Source: an uncultured Candidatus Sumerlaeota bacterium
GTDB taxonomy: Bacteria; Sumerlaeota; Sumerlaeia; MWCT01; JAUWMI01
Assembly (NCBI GenBank): GCA_964454265.1
Contig: CAYVXD010000002.1
Location: 888-64,887 of the forward strand
Reading direction: 5' to 3'
DNA length: 64,000 nucleotides
Every line of letters begins with the position of its first letter. Position 1 is the first letter of the stretch. The position numbers and the translations under genes were made by a program. Shown here piece by piece: positions 33,074 through 50,067 of this stretch. The notes beneath the pieces are model-generated. The model ran no database searches. It saw only the letters and a list, made by a program, of their open reading frames with translations, and had not been told where the DNA came from.

Positions 33074-34144
33074 TCAGATAACATCAATAACAAGCTCTTT
33101 CGTCACGCTGATCAGCAACAGAGCGAGAGTTATGAAATAATATCCCGTGGAGCTGATTGGAACCAGGTTTAGCATTCGCCTGCCAGGTCCGCACGTTGAG
33201 GTTTGGTTCGTAAGCCGCTCATCGAGAAAAATGGCAGAGTAAATAAAGATGATGGGCAGTGACAACCAGGGAAGCTCGCAAAGGAATGCAAAACCGATTA
33301 AGAGTGGAGCCTCCGCCACAGAAAAGTCCTGTGGTTTCCGCTGATGCAGAAACAGCGATAGCCCAATGAGGGCTACACCGGGTGGTATCGCCACCCAATC
33401 GCATTCGACTTCGAAACGTATCACAAACGCTCCCAGCACAATAATCCCAGCAAGCAGTGCTCCGCGCACAGCGGCAATCGAGAGGCACGCCGGAAGAACC
33501 GACCGGTGGCATCTCAAACTCCGTCTCAATTGCCAGGCGATCCCGTTAAGTAGAACAACCCCGAAAAGAGCGTAAGAAACGGCCGGGTTTAGGTAAGAGT
33601 GCAGAATGAACCCATTGGCGCTCACGTCACGGCATAGCATGAACAACAGAGGATACGACAGAAAACGAACGGTCCGGGGAAGTTCGGTTCGGAGAATGTT
33701 GGGGTTGCGCCACGAGAATCCATCTTTTACCGGAAGTGGGGAACGGAAGGGGAAAAGCAGCGGAACTCGGTTCGCATACTCCTCATATGTTCTCCCAAAC
33801 AGACTCCTCAGCGCAGTTTCTTCGCGGCGCATAGTAGGTAGGTACACAGCACACCACCAGACCGGGAACACGATCATCAGCAGCATAGAGCCGGACATCG
33901 CAACTATTGCTAAGTCAACGAAAATATTGCCGAGGTAGAAGGGGTGACGAACAAACCGATATGGGCCAGAGGTTGTGACGTCTCTATTCTGATGCAGGCA
34001 CCCCTTCGCCCACAGGCGAAGGGTGATTCCCACAAGCAGGAGTAAGGAGCCCACAGCAATACCAAAAGGCGTTACCTGACCGGCAAGCAGGCCAAGTATT
34101 ACTAGGTAGGTGCGAAATCCACCTCGATTACATGGCAAACGCAT
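33074..34144 (-). CDS. Isoprenylcysteine carboxyl methyltransferase (ICMT/PEMT) family membrane protein with extra C-terminal TM domain
   Basis: GPYRFVRHPFYLGNIF...REE-x-x-L-x-x-x-FG-x-x-Y-x-x-Y motif in the N-terminal half. The protein has about 9 TM segments. Confidence 0.7.
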   Translation of the reverse strand: MRLPCNRGGFRTYLVILGLLAGQVTPFGIAVGSLLLLVGITLRLWAKGCLHQNRDVTTSGPYRFVRHPFYLGNIFVDLAIVAMSGSMLLMIVFPVWWCAVYLPTMRREETALRSLFGRTYEEYANRVPLLFPFRSPLPVKDGFSWRNPNILRTELPRTVRFLSYPLLFMLCRDVSANGFILHSYLNPAVSYALFGVVLLNGIAWQLRRSLRCHRSVLPACLSIAAVRGALLAGIIVLGAFVIRFEVECDWVAIPPGVALIGLSLFLHQRKPQDFSVAEAPLLIGFAFLCELPWLSLPIIFIYSAIFLDERLTNQTSTCGPGRRMLNLVPISSTGYYFITLALLLISVTKELVIDVI

Positions 34145-34175
34145 GGCGCAGTCTCCTCACTTGCTTCTCCCGCCG

Positions 34176-34236
34176 AACTATGGTTTATATGCTTTTCGTA
34201 TAAGAACCTTTATGCAGCCAATGAGCGCTATAATAC
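34176..34236. repeat. 61-nt intergenic module, copy R1 (5' of the ICMT-like gene)
   Basis: Reads aactatggtttatatgcttttcgtataagaacctttatgcagccaatgagcgctataatac. Confidence 0.85.
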
Positions 34237-34308
34237 GATTGTCCTTCTCCGCCCATAAGTGATGTGATTGCAATGAAGTAGTGGCGACTTTCCATCCTTC
34301 TTGGGCGC

Positions 34309-34327
34309 TTATATGGTTTCCGTATAG
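34309..34327. repeat. Partial module copy R4 (19 nt identical to R3)
   Basis: Reads ttatatggtttccgtatag. Confidence 0.7.
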
Positions 34328-34396
34328 CATCCATTTAGGCGTTCCTCTTTTTCATTTGGAACTCAATAATCAAGCTTGCCTTCAAACTCTTTTCTC

Positions 34397-34834
34397 TTAT
34401 TTGCCTTTCTTCCTGGTCTTTGCCTTTCTCAGGTATTTCAAATCAGCTTTATCCTGTTCCCTATTTGCTTTTTCCTTGTTCCTGATAAGATCATCGAGCG
34501 AAATATATGATACATTGGCTTCTCCGTATTTACCAGTTGTTCTTTTTGACCAGGCATCTTCAAAACTGCCGATGCCAGAAATACTACTCATTAAATCAAT
34601 CCGAACTGGCGCAACTCCCAGCTGCACGGTGAGGTCGGGATTATATAAGTCAGCGATAGTTAATCCGAGGTCGTATCCACGAAAGAATGCTCGGATGGCC
34701 TTCAGTATCCTGAGCGCAGATTCTGCTGTGGCTTCATGAAGGATATGGATGTTTTTCGTTGCCCTCGGTCTTGCATAGAAAGCGACAGCATGAGCTCCGA
34801 CAATCAAGAACTTAACGCCATTTGCGTTTAACAA
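34397..34834 (-). CDS. Nucleotidyltransferase-fold-like small protein (uncharacterised family)
   Basis: 145-aa ORF (TTG start) reading LNANGVKFLIVGAHAVAFYARPRATKNIHIL. The in-frame upstream sequence DYEEFFE extends the similarity, so the ORF may be fused to 34812..35069 (see findings). Confidence 0.55.
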   Translation of the reverse strand: MLNANGVKFLIVGAHAVAFYARPRATKNIHILHEATAESALRILKAIRAFFRGYDLGLTIADLYNPDLTVQLGVAPVRIDLMSSISGIGSFEDAWSKRTTGKYGEANVSYISLDDLIRNKEKANREQDKADLKYLRKAKTRKKGK

Positions 34835-35069
34835 TTCGAAAAACTCTTCGTAGTCTTGGTGTGCTATTCGCCCCCCTTGTCTTTAGACATCCTAATAAAC
34901 ATGAATCCACAGAGTTAACTCGGTCTTCTGGAGAAAGGCCCTCAAGCCAGAAACGAAAATCTTCTTCTTCGGCCTCGGCCTTAGGCACAACCCTCGCCTT
35001 CCACTTTTTCCCATGTTTGTCTATGCTACTTCCACGTTCCATCATAAGTAGACCCCTTAAGAGCACCAC
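34812..35069 (-). CDS. Small hypothetical protein, overlapping or possibly frameshift-fused with 34397..34834
   Basis: 85-aa ORF. It overlaps the next ORF by 23 nt, and a G6 run (plus-strand C6, 34871..34876) lies at the frame junction. Confidence 0.4.
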   Translation of the reverse strand: MVLLRGLLMMERGSSIDKHGKKWKARVVPKAEAEEEDFRFWLEGLSPEDRVNSVDSCLLGCLKTRGANSTPRLRRVFRIVKRKWR

Positions 35070-35141
35070 AAGTTCTAACCGAATTCCTGATGCTAGTTAC
35101 AAAGATAAATATCAGAGTACATATTATTGAATCACCCAACG

Positions 35142-35501
35142 TCAAGGTTGAGCGGTTTTATCCGCCCCAACCGTTTGTTGAGTATTTTTCCTCTGCAATT
35201 CAATCTTCCACCATTTCGTAGTATTGTAAAGCAATCCTTCCTTTTCTCGGGAGGGTGCAAGATGCAAGCCGACACACAATACAAACAACAAAAATGATAT
35301 TATTACGCCAATAAAGCAAATAGACCTTCTTCTTCGTATCGCACCTACAACGGTTATGATCGGAGCAACGATGAGTAATATCCACGCGATTATCTAGCCC
35401 GTTCTAGTGAAATAGGTTAATGTCATTAATTGACCAGCAAGAACTGCGCATATAATAAAGATTATCGAAGTCGTTATCATTATGGAATTCTTGGTCTTCA
35501 T
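35142..35501 (-). pseudogene. Putative 3-TM small membrane protein interrupted by an in-frame TAG
   Basis: Manual translation gives MKTKNSIMITTSIIFIICAVLAGQLMTLTYFTRTG-TAG-IIAWILLIVAPIITVVGAIRRRRSICFIGVIISFLLFVLCVGLHLAPSREKEG...*. The TAG is at 35396..35394. The track's ORF 35200..35385 is in another frame. Confidence 0.3.
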
Positions 35502-35512
35502 TTTCGCTACTC

Positions 35513-35573
35513 AACTATTGTTTATATAGATCCGTATAAGAACCCAAATCATGCAAATCTATCAGTATAACAC
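35513..35573. repeat. 61-nt intergenic module, copy R2
   Basis: Reads aactattgtttatatagatccgtataagaacccaaatcatgcaaatctatcagtataacac. Confidence 0.85.
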
Positions 35574-35739
35574 TCCTGTTAATCTCCTTTCTTTTCTTTT
35601 CAACGTTCCGTGCTCACTCGTGTCTTGTAGCTGGTGATTTTATATGGGTCCGGATAATACCCGATTGCAATTCACAAGAGATGTAAGGTGTCCGCTGGGC
35701 TACGAACGCCTCGGGTAATGATGTCCGTTGGATTTATTG

Positions 35740-36078
35740 TTAGCTGCCTAGTATATCTTCAACCTCATTTCGAAGAGTTGGCATACTATCCTTTATGGCA
35801 GACCAGACCGTTGCATCGTCAATGATGTCATAACCATGGACAAGGACGTTGCGAAAACCGATAATCTTCTGATGACCGGTAATTTTGTCTATTATTTCTG
35901 GGTGCTCTCTTTTTAATCTTCTCAACGCCTCGCCAATCACAAGGAATTTGCGCTCTACAGCGGCCTTCACCATGGAATTGTCAGAATATTCTTCAAAACC
36001 CATGTCATGAGTGAATTCTTTGATTTCATCGCACGCCTGTTTAATATCGAAGAGGTAAGCTTTGGGCTCATGATCCAT
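35740..36078 (-). CDS. hepT: HepT-like (DUF86) RNase toxin of a type VII MntA/HepT TA pair
   Basis: 112 aa with the R-x4-H-x-Y motif (RNVLVHGY). It overlaps the upstream NTase gene by 11 nt. Confidence 0.85.
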   Translation of the reverse strand: MDHEPKAYLFDIKQACDEIKEFTHDMGFEEYSDNSMVKAAVERKFLVIGEALRRLKREHPEIIDKITGHQKIIGFRNVLVHGYDIIDDATVWSAIKDSMPTLRNEVEDILGS

Positions 36079-46125: not shown

Positions 46126-46342
46126 GCTCTGTTGAAAACCTTAGACCATACAAAAGAGGATATTGAAAATGATGGGTTCGCCACCTTGACGTAGCACGGG
46201 CGTCTCGCCCGTGTGGATTGACAACTATGGCACAAAGATCATCCGCCTAGGCGGATGCCACGTTATCAGAGCCACATTGACACTCCAAGTAGAATGGCGG
46301 TTCGATTTATTTCTGGCAGGATGTAAGGCTTTTCAACAGAGC
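46126..46342. repeat. MITE-like element: 17-18-nt terminal inverted repeats enclosing two GC hairpins
   Basis: The terminal repeats are gctctgttgaaaacctt (46126..46142) and aaggcttttcaacagagc (46325..46342). The internal hairpins are CACGGGCG-tct-CGCCCGTG (46195..46213) and CATCCGCCTAGGCGGATG (46240..46257). Confidence 0.5.
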
Positions 46343-46468
46343 ATGCGTCTGTAAAAAAAGGATTGATTTTACGGATGCACAATGACATAAAATTATAACG
46401 TAATGCTGTCGCGGAAGGGCCTGATTCGTCTCAGCCTTTTCCATCCTTCCCTTGAGTTGACCAGTTGT

Positions 46469-46545
46469 CGGGGCGTAGCGCAGTTGGCTAGCGCGCAGCG
46501 TTCGGGACGCTGAGGTCGGGGGTTCAAGTCCCCCCGCCCCGACCA
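46469..46545 (+). tRNA. tRNA-Pro (anticodon CGG), CCA encoded
   Basis: A manual cloverleaf folds cleanly. Acceptor CGGGGCG/CGCCCCG, D stem GCGC/GCGC, anticodon stem CAGCG/CGCTG with loop TTCGGGA, T arm GGGGG-TTCAAGT-CCCCC, discriminator A plus CCA. Total 77 nt. Confidence 0.95.
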
Positions 46546-46668
46546 GATGCAACTTTGCGAATTTATGGGGTAATATGGCAGAAGATATTTATAAATGCTT
46601 GTGAGAAAGCAAAAATACAAAAAACAGTAACAGTCCATGCCCTCAGGCATAGTTTTGCAACCCACCTT

Positions 46669-46693
46669 CACGCCGGAGGCGCATTTTCAACTT
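46669..46693. repeat. Left copy of a 25-nt perfect inverted repeat inside the recombinase remnant
   Basis: cacgccggaggcgcattttcaactt is the exact reverse complement of 46741..46765. Confidence 0.95.
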
Positions 46694-46740
46694 GAGTGCG
46701 GAACTGACCTGAGGTACATTCAAGAGATTTCAGGGCATAA

Positions 46741-46765
46741 AAGTTGAAAATGCGCCTCCGGCGTG
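46741..46765. repeat. Right copy of the 25-nt perfect inverted repeat
   Basis: Reads aagttgaaaatgcgcctccggcgtg. Confidence 0.95.
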
Positions 46766-46892
46766 CAGTAAGACTACCGAAATCTATACGCAAGTGAGCA
46801 CTAAAGATATTGGAAGAATCAAAAGTCCACTGGATAGTCTGAATATAATCAAGGGGCGTAATAAGTGACAAAATTTGTCAATGCGAAGGGGA

Positions 46893-46992
46893 CCTCTGGT
46901 TCAGCCAGAGGGAGGTATATCCGAACATAGTTCGTCTATACCTCCAACTTAGGCGGATATCCGAACTCGGTTCGCATGTGAACGAGTTAGAT
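46893..46992 (+). promoter_or_regulatory. Structured attI-like/operator-like region upstream of the ATPase gene
   Basis: It opens with the hairpins CCTCTGG-ttcag-CCAGAGG and GGAGGTATA...TATACCTCC. Two direct copies of ATATCCGAAC-N3-GTTCG follow, at 46917 and 46957 (40 nt apart). A perfect GTTRRRY core (GTTAGAT, 46986..46992) closes the region. Confidence 0.45.
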
Positions 46993-47106
46993 GCAATTGG
47001 ACAGGAAATAACACTGAAAAGGAAAATGCTGCGTGATGAGGAAAAACACAAAATTGGTAACAAGGTGTGGGAGAGTGTATCAAAAAGATGAACTTTCAAG
47101 GGGGAT

Positions 47107-48408
47107 GTGATGAGAGAAGGCATTGTTGATAGGGTAAAGAGAGAAAGAGAAACCTATTTCAAGGACAGATTTGGGTTAAAATCAAATCCCTTTATATTAT
47201 CTCCTTACGGTGATATCAAGAGACTTGCAAGAGTATTTGTGGATAGAAAAGAAGAAATTGAAAGGGCAGTTGTTACATGTTTAGAAGAGCCTCGGAATAT
47301 CCTTGTCTATGGCATGTTTGGAATTGGAAAATCTGCTTTCATTCTCAAATTACTTTATGAATTTGCTAAGGCAACATATATTCGTTCCCTCACATCGTAT
47401 GGCTATATAGGAGAGGCTACTCCTAAAGGCTTTGTTGCCCAAGCATTGTTGGGTTTGGCTACTTCTCTGACTGGAAATGGAAAAGCAGAGCAATACAAAA
47501 AGACGCTACTGGGTACCAGTAGAGTTAAAGAAATAGAAAAAGAAATAAGCGGAGAGATCGAAGGTGGAGTATTAGTGATGAAGGGGAAAGGTGGTGGAAA
47601 ACTTGCATTTACATCTGCAGAAATAATAGAGACAAATCTAGACCAGTTAAAACTACAAGCCATGTTTAAAGAACTCGTAAAAATATCAAAGCACAAAGCT
47701 GACCGGATAATAATTGCGATTGATGAAATGGATAAGCGAAGCGCTGCGAAAGTCCAGGAAATTATTGCGGAATGTAGAGGTTTACTGCACGAGTCCGTTT
47801 CGTTTATACTAACTACCTCCTTAAGAGCCATGATCTACAGAGCAGATGAACTTGGCAAGAAATTAGATGATATTTATTCCACTTTTTATGGTGCATTTGA
47901 TGAGAAAATCGAAATAAAGCCCTTCTCTTTAGCTGACTTATCTACATTTGAAGAATTGGTTGAGAAATCTTTAGGATCAGTAAGAATTTCCGGATTCGAA
48001 AAGGGAATAGTTCCATTCACTAACGACGGAATTGAATTCATAGCTAAACGGAGCCACGGAGTTCCCCGAGTGTTCAACCGAATATGTAGAGATGTACTTG
48101 ATACTGCTTGGCGTTTAAAGCTTGAACAGATCAATTCGGCGGCTGTTAAGTATTGCTTCAGGGTAAAAGGGAAAGAAATTTTAGAAAGTTTACCTAGAAA
48201 ACAACGAAAACTTATCGATTTAATAAATGAGCGAGGGGGAACACTAGAAAGAGTAGATGATAAGCTTGTTACAAAATATAAAGCAAAAAATAAACAGGCA
48301 GTTTACAGGCAACTTGGTTTTTTGGTACAGAACGATAAGATAATAAAAATAGAAACAGAAGAAGGCACAAATTATGAAGTGATACCCGAAATCAAGGAAG
48401 TAACATAG
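47107..48408 (+). CDS. AAA+ ATPase (Orc1/Cdc6- or ExeA-like P-loop) with C-terminal winged-helix-like domain
   Basis: 433-aa ORF with an N-terminal FGLKSNPF...FVDRKEEIE. Walker A is GMFGIGKS, Walker B is RIIIAIDEMD, and there is a sensor-like SFILTTS. The C-terminal ~80 aa (QRKLIDLINERGGTLERVDD...YRQLGFLVQNDKIIK) look wHTH-like. The probable start is the ATG at 47110. Confidence 0.8.
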   Translation: MMREGIVDRVKRERETYFKDRFGLKSNPFILSPYGDIKRLARVFVDRKEEIERAVVTCLEEPRNILVYGMFGIGKSAFILKLLYEFAKATYIRSLTSYGYIGEATPKGFVAQALLGLATSLTGNGKAEQYKKTLLGTSRVKEIEKEISGEIEGGVLVMKGKGGGKLAFTSAEIIETNLDQLKLQAMFKELVKISKHKADRIIIAIDEMDKRSAAKVQEIIAECRGLLHESVSFILTTSLRAMIYRADELGKKLDDIYSTFYGAFDEKIEIKPFSLADLSTFEELVEKSLGSVRISGFEKGIVPFTNDGIEFIAKRSHGVPRVFNRICRDVLDTAWRLKLEQINSAAVKYCFRVKGKEILESLPRKQRKLIDLINERGGTLERVDDKLVTKYKAKNKQAVYRQLGFLVQNDKIIKIETEEGTNYEVIPEIKEVT

Positions 48409-48486
48409 AGGGGGGGAGTGTATCATAAATAGAGATAGGCAAAAAGCAAGCAGCAAAAATTTTGCAAGATTTGGACGACCAACTGC

Positions 48487-48560
48487 ATCTAACACGGGCT
48501 TTGCGGCTTACTGCATTCTCTCAAATGCTTCGCACTTCGTAAAGCCCAAGAACGTTATAT
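48487..48560 (+). other. attC-like element A (74 nt)
   Basis: R''-like ATCTAAC, stem GGGCTTTGCG/CGTAAAGCCC, and R'-like GTTATAT. It is homologous in layout and partly in sequence to element B. Confidence 0.45.
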
Positions 48561-48576
48561 GAAATTGCTATGATAC

Positions 48577-49533
48577 ATGGGGGAAATTATGTTAGCTTTG
48601 TTTCTTGGAGCCGGCTTTTCTAAGTGGGCTGCAAATTTACCGGTGGCCAGTCAGTTCTTTGATTTTAACGTTGAACCTTCGGGGCCACGTGAGCTTAAAA
48701 AATTGGAGATTGTAAGGTCGTTAAAACATAATTGGGACAAATCACACCCGTATGGGCTTAGCGAACAATTCATTGTAGATGCATTGAAATTTGAGGAGAA
48801 AAAGAAAGAGGCGGTTCTTTGGTATATTGTTCGTAGGCTTTCGGAACCATTTATTTGGAAAGAATATCATGCACAGAAATGGCGCAGACATGTTTTGATG
48901 ATTGATGAAAATCGCAAATACGATAGACCAGGAGTCATTCAAGCACAAAAGTTTCTTAAGAAATATTCGACCCCATCTTTAGCTGGTATCATAACCACGA
49001 ATTATGATATCCTTGTTGAATATGCGCTTGGGACAAAGGGATTCAACTACGGTATCCCTAATCAAGCGCTTACAGGTCGAGGGCCGTATCCCGTTTCTCA
49101 GTGGAAAAATCCCGTTATACTAAAAGGCAATATCCCGATAGCGAAAATTCATGGTAGTATTTCATGGGATGAACATAATCAATATACAGATGGGAGGCAT
49201 GGTTTGACAGGTCATGCTTTGATTGTGGCACCAACGCCCGAGAAAGAATCATCAGAATCTTTGAGATTTGTTTGGAACTTGGCTAAAGAAATTCTCAGAA
49301 AAGCCACACGAATCATTGTTTTTGGGTTTGCATTTAACCCTTACGACACTTCCGTTCTGAATTTTCTAAAATCTGAAGGTAAGAACTTGGAGTCTGTTCT
49401 CTTGGTGAATATAGGATCCAACACTGAGGCGGCACGTATTCTGTGGCCACGCGCTAAAATTGTATCGACAATGCCGCCACCAGATGGGAATAAAGAGATG
49501 CAAAATTGGCAGAAGAAATGGCTAGGAATATGA
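48577..49533 (+). CDS. Stand-alone SIR2-like (SIR2_2/ThsA-type) domain protein, putative NADase effector
   Basis: 318-aa ORF with LFLGAGFS at the N-terminus, ITTNYD (catalytic Asn) and KIHGSISW (catalytic His). The probable start is the ATG at 48589 (GGGGGA lies 4 nt upstream). Confidence 0.8.
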   Translation: MGEIMLALFLGAGFSKWAANLPVASQFFDFNVEPSGPRELKKLEIVRSLKHNWDKSHPYGLSEQFIVDALKFEEKKKEAVLWYIVRRLSEPFIWKEYHAQKWRRHVLMIDENRKYDRPGVIQAQKFLKKYSTPSLAGIITTNYDILVEYALGTKGFNYGIPNQALTGRGPYPVSQWKNPVILKGNIPIAKIHGSISWDEHNQYTDGRHGLTGHALIVAPTPEKESSESLRFVWNLAKEILRKATRIIVFGFAFNPYDTSVLNFLKSEGKNLESVLLVNIGSNTEAARILWPRAKIVSTMPPPDGNKEMQNWQKKWLGI

Positions 49534-49543
49534 GCCCAATTTC

Positions 49544-49619
49544 ATCTAACAGCATGTTTACGGTTCGCTACGCTCACCCAAATGCTTTCGGCACTTCGCA
49601 AACACGCAGGACGTTAACC
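49544..49619 (+). other. attC-like element B (76 nt)
   Basis: R''-like ATCTAAC, stem GCATGTTTACG/CGCAAACACGC with 2 mismatches, and R'-like GTTAACC. The central caaatgctt..gcacttcg is shared with element A. Confidence 0.45.
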
Positions 49620-49818
49620 AAATTTGATATTGCCATTTTATGGGTTCGCAAAGCGTTTTAAGTGCGAGCATTTCCTGCCTTAAAATCCAGTAGCCGGGTA
49701 TGCCTTCCTGGTTTCATTAAGGGCCTTCTGCACCTGTTAATTGTGTTGAATTGCTGCGCCTATAATGACTATGGCTTGAAAGGTGATCCTTCCCCTTCAC
49801 TTTGTTCAGGGTCAGGAT

Positions 49819-49850
49819 GAGGGGTCGGGGGTAGAACTCCCCGACCCCTC
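49819..49850. repeat. GC-rich hairpin
   Basis: Reads GAGGGGTCGGGG-gtagaact-CCCCGACCCCTC (12-bp stem). Confidence 0.85.
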
Positions 49851-50067
49851 AATTATTTGCGTCAAGTGGCCAGTTAATCATTTGACATTTTCATATAGAT
49901 TGCCATGATGGTTGCGATTATCTGAATTGTTTACGATTCACGTTTTTGCAATAGAGCATTGGAAATCCCTCAAGCCAATCGCGTAAAGCCGCTTTTTCAG
50001 CGTGCGTTTATTAGATCGAGCAGGGATAGCCATAGGCTGAGAGTATCCTTGGTTTTAATGTGAATCC

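What the first reader, a model, noticed from the sequence alone, without database searches (positions are those of the whole stretch)
46893..46992. Direct repeats of a palindromic site (ATATCCGAAC-N3-GTTCG) upstream of the ATPase gene: attI-like IntI sites or a wHTH operator
Seen:
- Two copies of the site lie at 46917 and 46957, 40 nt apart (about 4 helical turns). Each contains the dyad CGAAC-N3-GTTCG.
- The first copy is embedded in a 9+5-bp hairpin (GGAGGTATA..TATACCTCC).
- The second copy lies 11 nt before the GTTAGAT core.
- A further hairpin (CCTCTGG/CCAGAGG) and the palindrome GACAAA-A-TTTGTC follow the recombinase stop.

Established knowledge: attI sites combine direct-repeat integrase-binding sites with a GTTRRRY simple site.

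Alternative inference: this is an operator for the wHTH domain of the downstream ATPase (autoregulation).
Basis: partly seen in the sequence, partly recalled or inferred. Interest (0 to 1): 0.5.

Follow-up and report, generated by a model that had tools for sequence, protein, structure and literature searches.

The report
Cassette insertion site of decayed integron-like element
The repeated palindromes are the cassette insertion site ("attI") left next to a dead recombinase gene, not a switch for the ATPase gene, and the site belongs to a large metagenomic family whose recombinase lacks the hallmark domain of integron integrases.

Summary
The exact dyad CGAAC-N3-GTTCG occurs twice in 64 kb, both times here, against 0.03 expected.

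The region 46905-46992 is an attI-type site. It lies between a C-terminal tyrosine-recombinase pseudogene (46546-46868, directly after tRNA-Pro) and the crossover core GTTAGAT (46986).

- **Cassettes.** The ATPase and the SIR2 gene are two separate mobile cassettes, each ending in an attC hairpin site.
- **Sister strain.** It has the same tRNA, the same recombinase remnant and one unit instead of two. Its sequence diverges within GTTA into two unrelated cassettes.
- **Metagenomes.** More than 100 contigs carry the same module: CCAGAGGGAKG, then 1-3 units of about 40 nt, then GTTRNNN. Unrelated genes follow it (76 clusters among 86 loci).
- **Operator reading.** It is refuted, because the dyads stay with the platform and not with the ATPase gene.
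- **Unusual points.** All 32 full-length relatives of the recombinase lack the IntI-specific additional domain and score as XerA-like. The units carry phased direct GGATATA repeats, the arm motif of archaeal dif. I found no description of this architecture.

What the units do mechanistically, most likely recombinase binding, is inferred and not shown.

The parts
46469..46545 (+). tRNA-Pro (CGG). The recombinase remnant starts at the next base.
   Evidence: ARAGORN and Rfam RF00005 at 66.7 bits. The sister strain L210 has the same junction.
46546..46868 (+). Pseudogene remnant of a tyrosine recombinase. Only about the last 75 residues survive (..QKIF.NACEKAKIQKTVTVHALRHSFATHL..GTDLRYIQEISGHKS..KTTEIYTQVSTKDIGRIKSPLDSL*). 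It is spread over three reading frames and broken by internal deletions and two 23-28-nt insertions.
   Evidence: Translations. The reconstituted 92 aa score best against TIGR02249 at 90 bits, model positions 241-315 of 315. tblastn with a full-length relative covers only its residues 275-347.
46893..46911 (.). Hairpin CCTCTGG-N5-CCAGAGG. Its 3' arm is the start of the conserved module. The 5' arm is specific to this lineage and is not conserved in the family.
   Evidence: upstream sequences of other loci lack CCTCTGG, and L210 keeps 6 of 7 bases.
46905..46992 (+). attI-type module: CCAGAGGGAGG, unit 1, spacer, unit 2, then GAACGA and the core GTTAGAT.
   Evidence: It aligns without difficulty with 50 two-unit modules from metagenomes at 77% mean column identity. 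The scan for its first 19 bases gave at least 120 stretches.
46911..46945 (.). Unit 1, an imperfect palindrome: GGAGGTATATCCGAAC-ATA-GTTCGTCTATACCTCC.
   Evidence: I4. Family counterpart: 92.7% of cells paired, with AU<->CG swaps.
46955..46979 (.). Unit 2, an imperfect palindrome: GGATATCCGAAC-TCG-GTTCGCATGT. Its right arm is the degenerate counterpart (GCATGTG) of the family's GGATATA motif at -12 from the core.
   Evidence: (90.9% paired in the family).
46986..46992 (+). Crossover core GTTAGAT (the R box). Platform sequence lies to its left and the first cassette to its right. The crossover falls within GTTA, by analogy between G46986 and T46987.
   Evidence: Comparison of window and L210, complementarity to R'' at 48480-48493, and contig L001 starting at the base equal to 46996.
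46987..48554 (+). Cassette 1: a 120-nt leader, the P-loop ATPase ORF (47107-48408) and its attC (48480-48560; R'' CAACTGCATCTAAC, L'' GGGCTTTGCG, L' CGTAAAGCCC, R' GTTATAT).
   Evidence: Pfam KAP_NTPase/AAA_16. The attC bottom strand folds as expected. The same cassette is followed by a different gene in L001.
48555..49613 (+). Cassette 2: SIR2-like ORF (48577-49533) and its attC (49536-49619; R'' CCAATTTCATCTAAC, R' GTTAACC). The array ends here, and the downstream flank is shared with the sister strain.
   Evidence: Pfam SIR2_2, PADLOC SIR2 models, sequence and the L210 flank.

Best explanation
The region is the primary cassette insertion site (attI-type) of a small, decayed integron-like platform.

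**Layout (shown).** The order on the + strand is tRNA-Pro, then the 3' remnant of a co-oriented tyrosine-recombinase gene, then the module, then two cassettes. The module is CCAGAGGGAGG, two units of about 40 nt, then GAACGA and G|TTAGAT. The cassettes (ATPase, SIR2) each end in a folded attC site.

**What each unit is (shown).** A unit is a short imperfect palindrome (..ATATNCGAAC-N3-GTTCG..) flanked by GGATATA-like motifs. Across the family these motifs form a phased array of direct repeats about every 20 nt. The last one lies 4-5 nt before the crossover G.

**How it most likely works (inferred).**
- Several monomers of the cognate recombinase bind the repeated arms and assemble on one face of the DNA.
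- The last arm, together with the cassette-borne arm TTAKNYG, forms a dif-like core.
- That core is exchanged with the folded bottom strand of an incoming attC.
- The units can also recombine with each other, which changes their number between 1 and 3.

**State of this locus.** In this genome the recombinase gene is dead and the core-proximal arm is degenerate. Any recent cassette turnover therefore needed a recombinase supplied in trans, or homologous replacement of the whole array.
For: **Shown: cassette boundary.**
- The first 14 nt from GTT (46986) are the reverse complement, with 1 mismatch, of R'' at 48480-48493.
- The same holds in 34 of 80 family loci, against 1 of 80 controls. A systematic T->C change in these loci gives a G.T wobble on the bottom strand only.

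**Shown: insertion point.**
- The sister strain L210 shares tRNA-Pro, the same remnant junction, one unit and GAACGAGTTA.
- It then carries two other cassettes and rejoins the window at GTTAACC(A/G)AATTTGATATT.

**Shown: mobility.** The ATPase cassette recurs with another downstream gene in L001 and in another context in L212.

**Shown: family.**
- The pattern scan gave at least 120 stretches.
- By core position, 12 loci have 1 unit, 68 have 2 and 18 have 3, out of 99.
- The genes that follow the core form 76 clusters among 86 loci.

**Shown: link to the recombinase.**
- 64 of 108 assessable loci keep recognisable C-terminal recombinase motifs just upstream.
- Five loci have a full-length gene ending 5-70 nt before the module.

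**Shown: unit anatomy.**
- The palindrome cores are 91-93% paired, against 18-58% in slid controls. The covariation score is 0.139 against 0.090 in shuffles (0 of 500 reach it).
- GGATATA lies on the top strand at -12/-11 in 87 of 98 loci and again at -30, -51 and about -70.

**Supports the binding inference.**
- GGATATAA is the left arm of the dif site of P. abyssi that XerA binds and recombines in vitro (PMC2958812). The full-length relatives pass the XerA model.
- Unit-number changes have junctions at ..GAAC|loop with only 2-10 nt of identity (window against L210; L170 against L106/L208).

**Literature.** Putative attI sites immediately downstream of a co-oriented intI are reported for archaeal and Treponema integrons (PMC9668308; PMC3607928).
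Against: - No protein binding has been shown for any member of the family.
- The window's arm next to the core is GCATGTG, three mismatches from GGATATA. No recombinase of this family is encoded in the 64 kb. This copy may therefore be inactive.
- The difference in cassettes between the two strains could come from homologous replacement between the conserved flanks, or from differential loss out of a longer ancestral array. Neither needs a recent insertion at this site.
- The spacing between the outer arms of a unit varies from 11 to 16 nt. That is awkward for a rigid protein dimer and fits hairpin or cruciform formation at least as well.
- Most family loci have decayed recombinase genes or none, so co-function rests on association.
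- The relatives lack the IntI additional domain, which in known integrons is needed to recombine folded attC sites. Calling the site 'attI' is therefore an analogy and not membership.
Confidence: 0.78

Rival explanations
1. The dyads are an operator bound by the C-terminal winged-helix part of the downstream ATPase, which would then regulate itself.
For: The dyads are symmetric and lie 135-190 nt upstream of the ATPase start codon. The ATPase has an AAA lid and a C-terminal extension with weak Orc1/Cdc6 similarity.
Against: - The dyads lie outside the cassette, whose 5' end is fixed at 46987 by its complementarity to R''.
- L212 has a leader and ATPase N-terminus that are 82% identical, but no dyad pair upstream.
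- L210 has the same unit before an unrelated gene.
- In the family the module precedes 76 different gene clusters and follows the recombinase gene.
Confidence: 0.02
2. The hairpins are an attC site, or the remains of one, belonging to a lost preceding cassette, and not a platform site.
For: - The region folds strongly as single-stranded DNA on both strands.
- CTCCAAC (46940-46946) is a 5-of-7 inverse match to GTTAGAT.
- Some family loci have cassette-like sequence upstream of a very short recombinase remnant (L120 and L154).
Against: - attC sites differ from cassette to cassette. This module is conserved in sequence in over 100 loci with unrelated cassettes and is tied to the 3' end of the recombinase gene.
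- The genuine attCs of the same arrays have a different plan: R''-L''...L'-R', 75-85 nt, with a bottom-strand wobble.
- There is no L''/L' pair here.
Confidence: 0.06
3. The palindromes act only as structures: RNA or DNA hairpins that end, stabilise or insulate the recombinase transcript, or cruciforms, with no sequence-specific recombinase binding.
For: - The fold z-scores are -4.8 and -4.9.
- Stems keep pairing through compensatory changes and through changes in stem length.
Against: - No T-tract follows any stem, and the terminator scan finds none.
- G.T and A.C mismatches are equally frequent (28 against 28), so neither strand is favoured as it would be for an RNA.
- One position in each stem is a conserved mismatch, paired in only 22-25% of loci.
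- The outer arms are conserved as direct GGATATA repeats and not as perfect inverted repeats: about 120 exact top-strand copies against 18 on the bottom strand.
Confidence: 0.1
4. The module mainly carries the promoter for the first cassette (a Pc equivalent, or an archaeal TATA box in GGATATAA about 12 nt before the core). The repeats would then be regulator sites.
For: - Cassettes are normally promoterless, so a platform promoter is expected (established knowledge of integrons).
- ATATAA lies at a fixed distance from the core in 87 of 98 loci.
Against: - No sigma-70-like promoter lies inside 46905-46992. The only + strand hit in the area is a 9-of-12 match at 46998-47027, inside the cassette, and the number of hits equals the shuffled expectation.
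- The same architecture occurs in archaeal and bacterial MAGs, whose promoters differ.
- In the window the proximal motif has degenerated to GCATGTG.
- This reading could hold alongside the attI function.
Confidence: 0.04

Closest known systems
attI sites of integrons whose integrase is co-oriented with the cassettes (Treponema denticola type; archaeal integrons of Ghaly et al. 2022)
   Same: - The site lies immediately after the stop codon of the recombinase gene.
- It ends in a GTTRRRY box at which cassettes carrying attC sites are inserted.
- It is semi-conserved between distant hosts (PMC9668308; PMC3607928).
   Different: - Those integrases carry the IntI-specific additional domain. The relatives of this remnant do not.
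- I found no report of a tandem array of palindromic units in those attI sites. Their sequences are only in figures that I could not read.
attI1 of class 1 integrons (simple site L+R plus direct repeats DR1 and DR2)
   Same: A crossover box GTTRRRY is preceded by further repeated sites. The AAC-N3-GTT geometry of each dyad equals that of the attI1 simple site (..AAC AAA GTT..). This comparison rests on my own knowledge of attI1.
   Different: - attI1 lies upstream of a divergently transcribed intI1 and contains Pc.
- Its accessory sites are not palindromes and are not phased at 20 nt.
- There is no GGATATA motif.
XerA/dif of Thermococcales (ATTGGATATAA-TCGGCC-TTATATCTAAA)
   Same: - The arm motif GGATATA(A) is identical.
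- The cassette-borne arm after the G has the consensus TTATnCG and is within 2 mismatches of TTATATC in 45 of 98 loci.
- Full-length relatives pass NCBIfam's XerA model at 248-257 bits against a cutoff of 220.
   Different: - dif is a single site near the replication terminus and is not next to xerA (PMC2958812).
- Here the motif is repeated directly 2-6 times next to the recombinase gene.
- The gap to the opposite arm is 1-2 bp shorter.
- The partner site is a folded attC.
- The recombinase has an extra N-terminal segment of about 75 residues.
Integron attC sites
   Same: They are imperfect palindromes that fold as single strands, with AAC/GTT triplets.
   Different: - attC sites are specific to their cassette and lie at the cassette's 3' end.
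- They are 55-140 nt long with R''-L''/L'-R' boxes.
- The true attCs of this array (48480-48560 and 49536-49619) look different from the units.

Membership tests
Integron attI site | Lies next to the integrase gene, between it and the first cassette. | tested here: met
   The recombinase remnant ends at 46868, the module spans 46905-46992 and the first cassette starts at 46987. The family shows the same arrangement.
Integron attI site | Holds the insertion point: constant platform sequence to the left of G|TT in a GTTRRRY box and variable cassettes to the right. | tested here: met
   Window against L210. In the family, 86 loci give 76 clusters of following genes. GTTAGAT fits GTTRRRY.
Integron attI site | The start of the first cassette is the split R' box of its own attC, and so is complementary to that cassette's R''. 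| tested here: met
   GTTAGATGCAATTG against CAACTGCATCTAAC, 13 of 14. In the family, 34 of 80 loci against 1 of 80 controls.
Integron attI site | Contains several binding sites for the cognate integrase (L, R and accessory repeats). | not testable with these tools
   Repeated motifs are present and phased. Binding needs EMSA or footprinting.
Integron attI site | The cognate recombinase is an IntI, meaning a tyrosine recombinase with the IntI-specific additional domain. | tested here: not met
   - The remnant lacks that part of the protein, so it cannot be tested directly.
- Full-length relatives score 221-224 bits against TIGR02249, below its cutoff of 265, and skip model positions 178-240.
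- In them, 22 residues replace residues 177-240 of VchIntIA.
- All 32 relatives have Xer-like spacing of 58-60 aa at this point.
Integron attI site | A promoter for the cassettes (Pc) lies in or next to the site. | tested here: inconclusive
   The consensus scan gives only background-level hits. No transcript data are available.
Integron attC site | Lies at the 3' end of a cassette, differs between cassettes and has the R''-L''...L'-R' plan. | tested here: not met
   The module is conserved across unrelated cassettes and tied to the recombinase gene. It has no L boxes, and the inverse core matches only 5 of 7.
Xer/dif chromosome-dimer resolution site | Two inverted 11-bp arms separated by 6 bp. 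| tested here: inconclusive
   GGATATA(A) equals the left arm of P. abyssi dif. The opposite arm comes from the cassette, resembles TTATATC only moderately, and the gap is 1-2 bp shorter.
Xer/dif chromosome-dimer resolution site | A single copy per replicon in the terminus region, not linked to the xer gene or to mobile cassettes. | tested here: not met
   The module abuts the recombinase gene, occurs twice within 8 kb in L207 and is followed by cassettes.
Autoregulatory operator of the downstream ATPase | The site stays upstream of homologues of the regulated gene. | tested here: not met
   L212 has a homologous leader and ATPase N-terminus without the dyad pair. The same unit precedes other genes.
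Intrinsic transcription terminator | A G+C-rich stem followed by a run of T. | tested here: not met
   No terminator-like site was found in 46300-47300. The stems are followed by CCAACTTAGG and GAACGAG.

The most novel reading that the evidence does not exclude
The module marks a second lineage of integron-like gene-capture platforms that has gone unnoticed. It is widespread in anoxic-sediment bacteria and archaea; relatives occur in MAGs labelled Methanoperedens, Methanophagales, Desulfobacteraceae, Latescibacterota and Bacteroidota.

Its integrase would be a XerA/IntI intermediate. It lacks the I2 additional domain and carries an extra N-terminal segment. Its attI would be a tandem array of dif-type arms with palindromic spacers. 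It would nevertheless handle classical attC cassettes that fold on the bottom strand.

Such platforms would be reported as 'CALINs' by tools that require the IntI domain. They could represent the missing step between Xer/dif systems and integrons.
Probability: 0.3. Interest if true: 0.85.

Novelty: new variant of a known kind. Interest (0 to 1): 0.58.

Why it matters
**For this locus.** The result settles the annotation.
- The ATPase and the SIR2-like gene are independent mobile cassettes in a two-cassette array next to tRNA-Pro.
- The repeats upstream are the platform's insertion site and not a regulatory site of the ATPase.

**More broadly.**
- attI sites outside the clinical integron classes are almost uncharacterised. 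The integron field holds that the I2 additional domain is what let a Xer-like ancestor use folded single-stranded attC sites.
- Here a large family of platforms has genuine attC cassettes, a recombinase without that domain, and an insertion site built from phased dif-type arms.
- If this family is active, it makes that evolutionary question testable by experiment.
- It would also explain part of the many 'integrase-less' cassette clusters seen in environmental genomes.

Tried and rejected
- **Rfam.** Gathering thresholds on the whole window gave only the tRNA.
Looking for dyads upstream of ATPase homologues first failed. The protein has only two close homologues, and their contigs hold 114 nt and 19 nt of upstream sequence. 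The exhaustive HMMER search then gave a fragment (P0153) whose contig L212 allowed the test.
- **Locating the window's contig.** Looking it up by one of its proteins found nothing on record. A 90%-cluster relative gave the sister strain instead.
- **A simple attC finder of my own.** It recovered only one of the two attCs and had about 0.6 false hits per 64 kb. I replaced it with the test of cassette start against R'' complementarity.
- **Wobble asymmetry.** I used it to ask whether one strand (RNA or single-stranded DNA) folds. There was no asymmetry, 28 against 28.
- **Anchoring on the core.** A first attempt allowed GAT and produced false anchors. I redid it with GTT only.
- **tRNA adjacency as a general property of the platforms.** Rejected. 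Only 6 of the 120 scanned loci hold any tRNA gene, and none abuts the module as in the window.
- **SSV-type splitting of the integrase gene by integration into the tRNA.** Considered and dropped. The remnant holds only the last 75 residues and carries several internal deletions.
- **Literature.** Searches for a described palindromic or dif-like attI, or for integron-like arrays with domain-less integrases, found nothing. The library is incomplete, so this is weak evidence of novelty.
Full report
**1. The observation**

- ATATCCGAACATAGTTCG lies at 46917-46934 and ATATCCGAACTCGGTTCG at 46957-46974, with starts 40 nt apart.
- The first copy sits inside a hairpin with 16-nt arms, 46911-46926 and 46930-46945, 14 of 16 complementary.
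- The second copy ends 11 nt before GTTAGAT (46986-46992).
- CCTCTGG/CCAGAGG (46893-46911) and GACAAAATTTGTC (46867-46879) follow the stop codon (46866-46868) of a recombinase reading frame.
- The exact dyad CGAAC-N3-GTTCG occurs twice in 64 kb, both times here. The expectation is 0.03, and 0 of 100 shuffles gave two.
- The 110-nt stretch folds far better than shuffles on both strands, with z about -4.8.

**2. Surroundings in the window**

- **tRNA.** tRNA-Pro(CGG) lies at 46469-46545.
- **Recombinase remnant.** Directly after the tRNA comes the decayed 3' end of a tyrosine-recombinase gene (46546-46868). It reads ..QKIF.NACEKAKIQKTVTVHALRHSFATHL / GTDLRYIQEISGHKS / KTTEIYTQVSTKDIGRIKSPLDSL*. 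The pieces lie in three reading frames. tblastn with a full-length relative covers only that protein's residues 275-347.
- **Composition.** G+C falls from about 0.51 to 0.41-0.42 between 46 and 50 kb.
- **Genes in the low-G+C stretch.** They are a P-loop ATPase (47107-48408; KAP_NTPase/AAA_16) and a SIR2-like protein (48577-49533).
- **attC sites.** Each gene is followed by an imperfect palindrome of about 80 nt with the plan of an integron attC site.
  - 48480-48560: CAACTGCATCTAAC-AC-GGGCTTTGCGG...CGTAAAGCCC-AAGAAC-GTTATAT.
  - 49536-49619: CCAATTTCATCTAAC...GTTAACC.
- **Cassette ends.** The first 14 nt from the GTT at 46986 (GTTAGATGCAATTG) are the reverse complement of the R'' box of the ATPase attC, matching at 13 of 14. 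The start of the SIR2 unit (GTTATATGAAATTG) is likewise complementary to its own R''. This is how integrated integron cassettes are built. The ATPase unit (46987-48554) and the SIR2 unit (48555-49613) are therefore two cassettes, and GTTAGAT is the left border of the array.

**3. Evidence from related sequences that this is the insertion point**

- **The ATPase cassette is mobile.**
  - The ATPase has only two close relatives among 5.8 billion proteins.
  - In contig L001 (92% identity) the contig starts at the base equal to window 46996. The attC is homologous, but the next gene is different.
  - In L212 an 82%-identical leader and N-terminus are homologous from GCAATTG onward. What lies upstream is different: a half unit behind a sequence that looks like the 3' half of a tRNA.
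- **A sister strain pins down the crossover.**
  - L210 comes from NCBI assembly GCA_030613245.1, and its flanks are nearly identical to the window's.
  - It has the same tRNA-Pro, the same junction with the recombinase remnant, one unit instead of two, and the identical GAACGAGTTA. Its single unit equals the window minus the 40 nt at 46927-46966.
  - After that come two unrelated cassettes with their own attCs (a 304-aa protein and a Trypsin_2 protein). It rejoins the window at GTTAACC(A/G)AATTTGATATT.
  - The two strains thus share everything to the left of GTTA and everything to the right of the last attC, and nothing in between.

**4. The module is a family**

- **First relatives.** Relatives of the remnant are followed by similar palindromes and a GTTRNNN box.
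- **Metagenome scan.** Nearly all show the same plan: CCAGAGGGATG, then TATATNCGAAC-N2-4-GTTCGGATATA, then ..CCAAATTGGAAG.., then GATATACGAAC-N3-GTTCGGATATA, then N4-5, then GTTAKNYGMAAT, then divergent sequence with a ribosome-binding site and a start codon.
- **Number of units.** By the position of the core, 12 loci have one unit, 68 have two and 18 have three, out of 99. The period is 37-42 nt, most often 41.
- **Genes that follow.** The first ORFs after the core fall into 76 blastp clusters among 86 loci.
- **Cassette structure.** In 34 of 80 loci the start of the first cassette recurs as its reverse complement 450-2517 nt downstream, against 1 of 80 for controls (I set aside one further hit at 115 nt as too short for a cassette). 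A systematic T->C difference makes a G.T wobble on the bottom strand only. That is the signature of attC sites that fold on the bottom strand.
- **What lies upstream.**
  - 64 of 108 assessable loci keep recognisable C-terminal recombinase motifs.
  - 5 loci have a full-length gene ending 5-70 nt before the module, 8 are cut by a contig end and 27 are truncated at the N-terminus.
  - Some of the remaining loci show IS200-like or other unrelated sequence upstream.
  - Decayed platforms such as the one in the window are therefore common.

**5. Anatomy of the units**

This uses a 51-sequence alignment of two-unit modules (A2).
- **Pairing.** The two palindrome cores are 92.7% and 90.9% paired, against 18-58% when the partner columns are slid.
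- **Covariation.** AU<->CG swaps occur at two positions in each unit. The covariation score is 0.139 against 0.090 in shuffles, and 0 of 500 shuffles reach it. The sequences are related, so the shuffle count is not a probability.
- **Conserved mismatch.** One position in each stem is usually mismatched (GxG or AxG), paired in only 22-25% of loci.
- **No strand preference.** G.T and A.C mismatches are equally common, 28 each. Neither strand is favoured, which argues against an RNA element.
- **Direct repeats.**
  - The conserved mismatch exists because the outer arms are conserved as direct repeats of GGATATA and not as perfect inverted repeats.
  - With up to one mismatch, the motif sits on the top strand at -12/-11 from the G of the core in 87 of 98 loci. 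It recurs at -30, -51, about -70, -87 and -109.
  - Exact copies number about 120 on the top strand against 18 on the bottom strand.
- **Variable width.** The distance between the outer arms of a unit varies from 11 to 16 nt.
- **The window's copy.** Its four motif positions read GGAGGTATA (46911), GTCTATA (46934), GGATATC (46955) and GCATGTG (46974). This copy is degenerate, most of all next to the core.

**6. The recombinase**

- **The remnant.** The reconstituted 92-residue remnant scores best against the integron-integrase model TIGR02249 (90 bits, aligned to the end of the model). XerD scores 78 bits.
- **Full-length neighbours of the module.** For L158 and L167, NF040815 (XerA, named 'site-specific tyrosine recombinase/integron integrase') gives 248-257 bits against a cutoff of 220. 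TIGR02249 gives 221-224 bits, below its cutoff of 265, in two pieces that skip model positions 178-240.
- **Comparison with solved structures.** The best match is VchIntIA (2a3v) in two pieces, with 22 residues standing in for residues 177-240 of VchIntIA. XerA (5hxy) aligns in one piece.
- **All relatives.** All 32 full-length relatives in the fetched loci have 58-60 residues between GKxxKxR and HxLRHSFA, as in Xer proteins.
- **Conclusion.** The family is close to IntI, with which it shares the SPLD tail, but it lacks the additional (I2) domain that defines IntI (Messier & Roy 2001, as cited in PMC9668308). It has an extra N-terminal segment of about 75 residues with a sub-threshold HARP match (E = 8e-4).
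- **Link to dif.** The dif site that P. abyssi XerA binds and recombines in vitro is ATTGGATATAA-TCGGCC-TTATATCTAAA (PMC2958812). Its left arm is the GGATATA(A) motif repeated here. The cassette-borne arm after the G has the consensus TTATnCG and is within two mismatches of TTATATC in 45 of 98 loci.

**7. How it most likely works**

- **Shown.**
  - The region is the border between platform and cassettes.
  - It is conserved together with the 3' end of the recombinase gene.
  - Cassettes differ to the right of GTT.
- **Inferred.**
  - The phased GGATATA arms are binding sites for the cognate recombinase.
  - The last arm and the cassette's TTAKNYG arm form a dif-like core that is exchanged with a folded attC.
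  - The units can recombine with each other. The evidence is that the one-unit and two-unit versions differ by a clean junction at ..GAAC|loop. The identity at that junction is only 10 nt in window against L210 and 2-4 nt in L170 against L106/L208, which share the same upstream gene.
- **Open.** Whether the palindromic centres act as duplex core sites or as extruded hairpins. Variable stem length favours structure. The conserved mismatch, the direct orientation of the arms and the lack of strand bias favour recognition of duplex DNA.
- **In this genome.**
  - The recombinase gene is dead and no paralogue lies in the 64 kb.
  - Both strains share the same truncation. The cassette difference therefore arose later through a recombinase acting in trans, through differential loss, or through homologous replacement between the flanks.

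**8. Alternatives**

- **Operator for the ATPase.** Refuted; see points 2-4.
- **attC remnant.** Unlikely, because the module is constant across cassettes and tied to the recombinase gene.
- **Terminator or RNA hairpin.** No T-tract is present and neither strand is favoured.
- **Promoter.** Only background-level matches were found. The same plan occurs in bacterial and archaeal MAGs. A promoter role could still hold alongside the attI function.

**9. Comparison with what is known, and novelty**

- Putative attI sites lying downstream of a co-oriented intI are described for Treponema and archaeal integrons. Functionally this locus is of that kind.
- It fails one defining test for an integron, the IntI additional domain in the cognate recombinase family.
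- I could not find its site architecture described: tandem units of about 40 nt, dif-type arms phased at about 20 nt, palindromic spacers.
- I therefore rate it a new variant of a known kind. The stronger reading, a separate Xer-like lineage of integrons, gets a probability of about 0.3.

**10. Host**

- The window is part of a 72,658-nt NCBI MAG contig.
- Its ATP synthase beta subunit is about 80% identical to those of Candidatus Sumerlaeota (BRC1) and similar candidate phyla. The host is therefore an uncultivated bacterium whose phylum is not firmly assigned.
- The closest relatives of the recombinase remnant come from MAGs labelled Methanoperedens, Latescibacterota, Desulfobacteraceae and others.

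Noticed in passing
window 46666-46693 and 46741-46768: A 28-nt inverted repeat, 96% complementary with a 23-nt exact core (CGCCGGAGGCGCATTTTCAACTT), is inserted twice in opposite orientation in the recombinase pseudogene. The two copies flank 47 nt of coding sequence that is otherwise in order (ECGTDLRYIQEISGHKS). The repeat occurs nowhere else in the window. The sister strain has a 114-nt deletion that removes the left copy, the 47 nt between the copies and most of the right copy. Its origin is unknown.
   Followed up: partly
window 47107-48408 and 48577-49533: The two cassettes encode a KAP/AAA+ P-loop ATPase and a SIR2-like protein, and the SIR2-like protein hits several PADLOC SIR2 models. 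They look like anti-phage defence genes carried as independent cassettes. In L001 the ATPase cassette is followed by a different 377-aa gene. The ATPase family is rare: 2 close homologues, and 131 distant ones at E<=1e-3 among 1.84 billion representative proteins.
   Followed up: partly
L212 1-70 and 1190-1255: In this contig the truncated ATPase cassette follows GTTCGAATCCCACCCTCTCCGCCA, which looks like the 3' half of a tRNA but is not called by ARAGORN. After that sequence come ATTTGGGGAAA, a half unit GTTCGTATATACCGAA, and the core GTTATAAGC. The same combination recurs 1.2 kb downstream before another gene. The family's spacer consensus ..ACCGCCAAATTGG.. resembles a tRNA acceptor end. This may hint at where the units came from, or at a second class of target site.
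   Followed up: partly
window 49768-49858: An insertion of about 90 nt contains the G+C-rich hairpin GAGGGGTCGGGG-N8-CCCCGACCCCTC. It is absent from the otherwise collinear sister strain. It resembles a small REP- or MITE-like element.
   Followed up: no
L207 (two modules 8 kb apart); L132 and L165; L106, L170 and L208: The module can occur twice on one contig. It can be preceded by an IS200/IS605-like transposase end (..VDHVHLFIKY..). In one group of three loci it is preceded by another conserved gene in place of the recombinase. Platforms without an intact recombinase gene are the majority.
   Followed up: partly
L014-L089 (Bacteroidota genomes): More distant relatives of the recombinase (about 60-70% identity over the C-terminus, 385-431 aa) are followed by a single palindrome such as ATATATGTAAC-NN-GTTACATATAT and then ATTGTTRY. 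The same site plan may therefore extend to a large group in Bacteroidota.
   Followed up: no
window 34001-36000: A second dip in G+C (0.43 against about 0.51) holds only short ORFs of 85-152 aa. I did not examine it.
   Followed up: no
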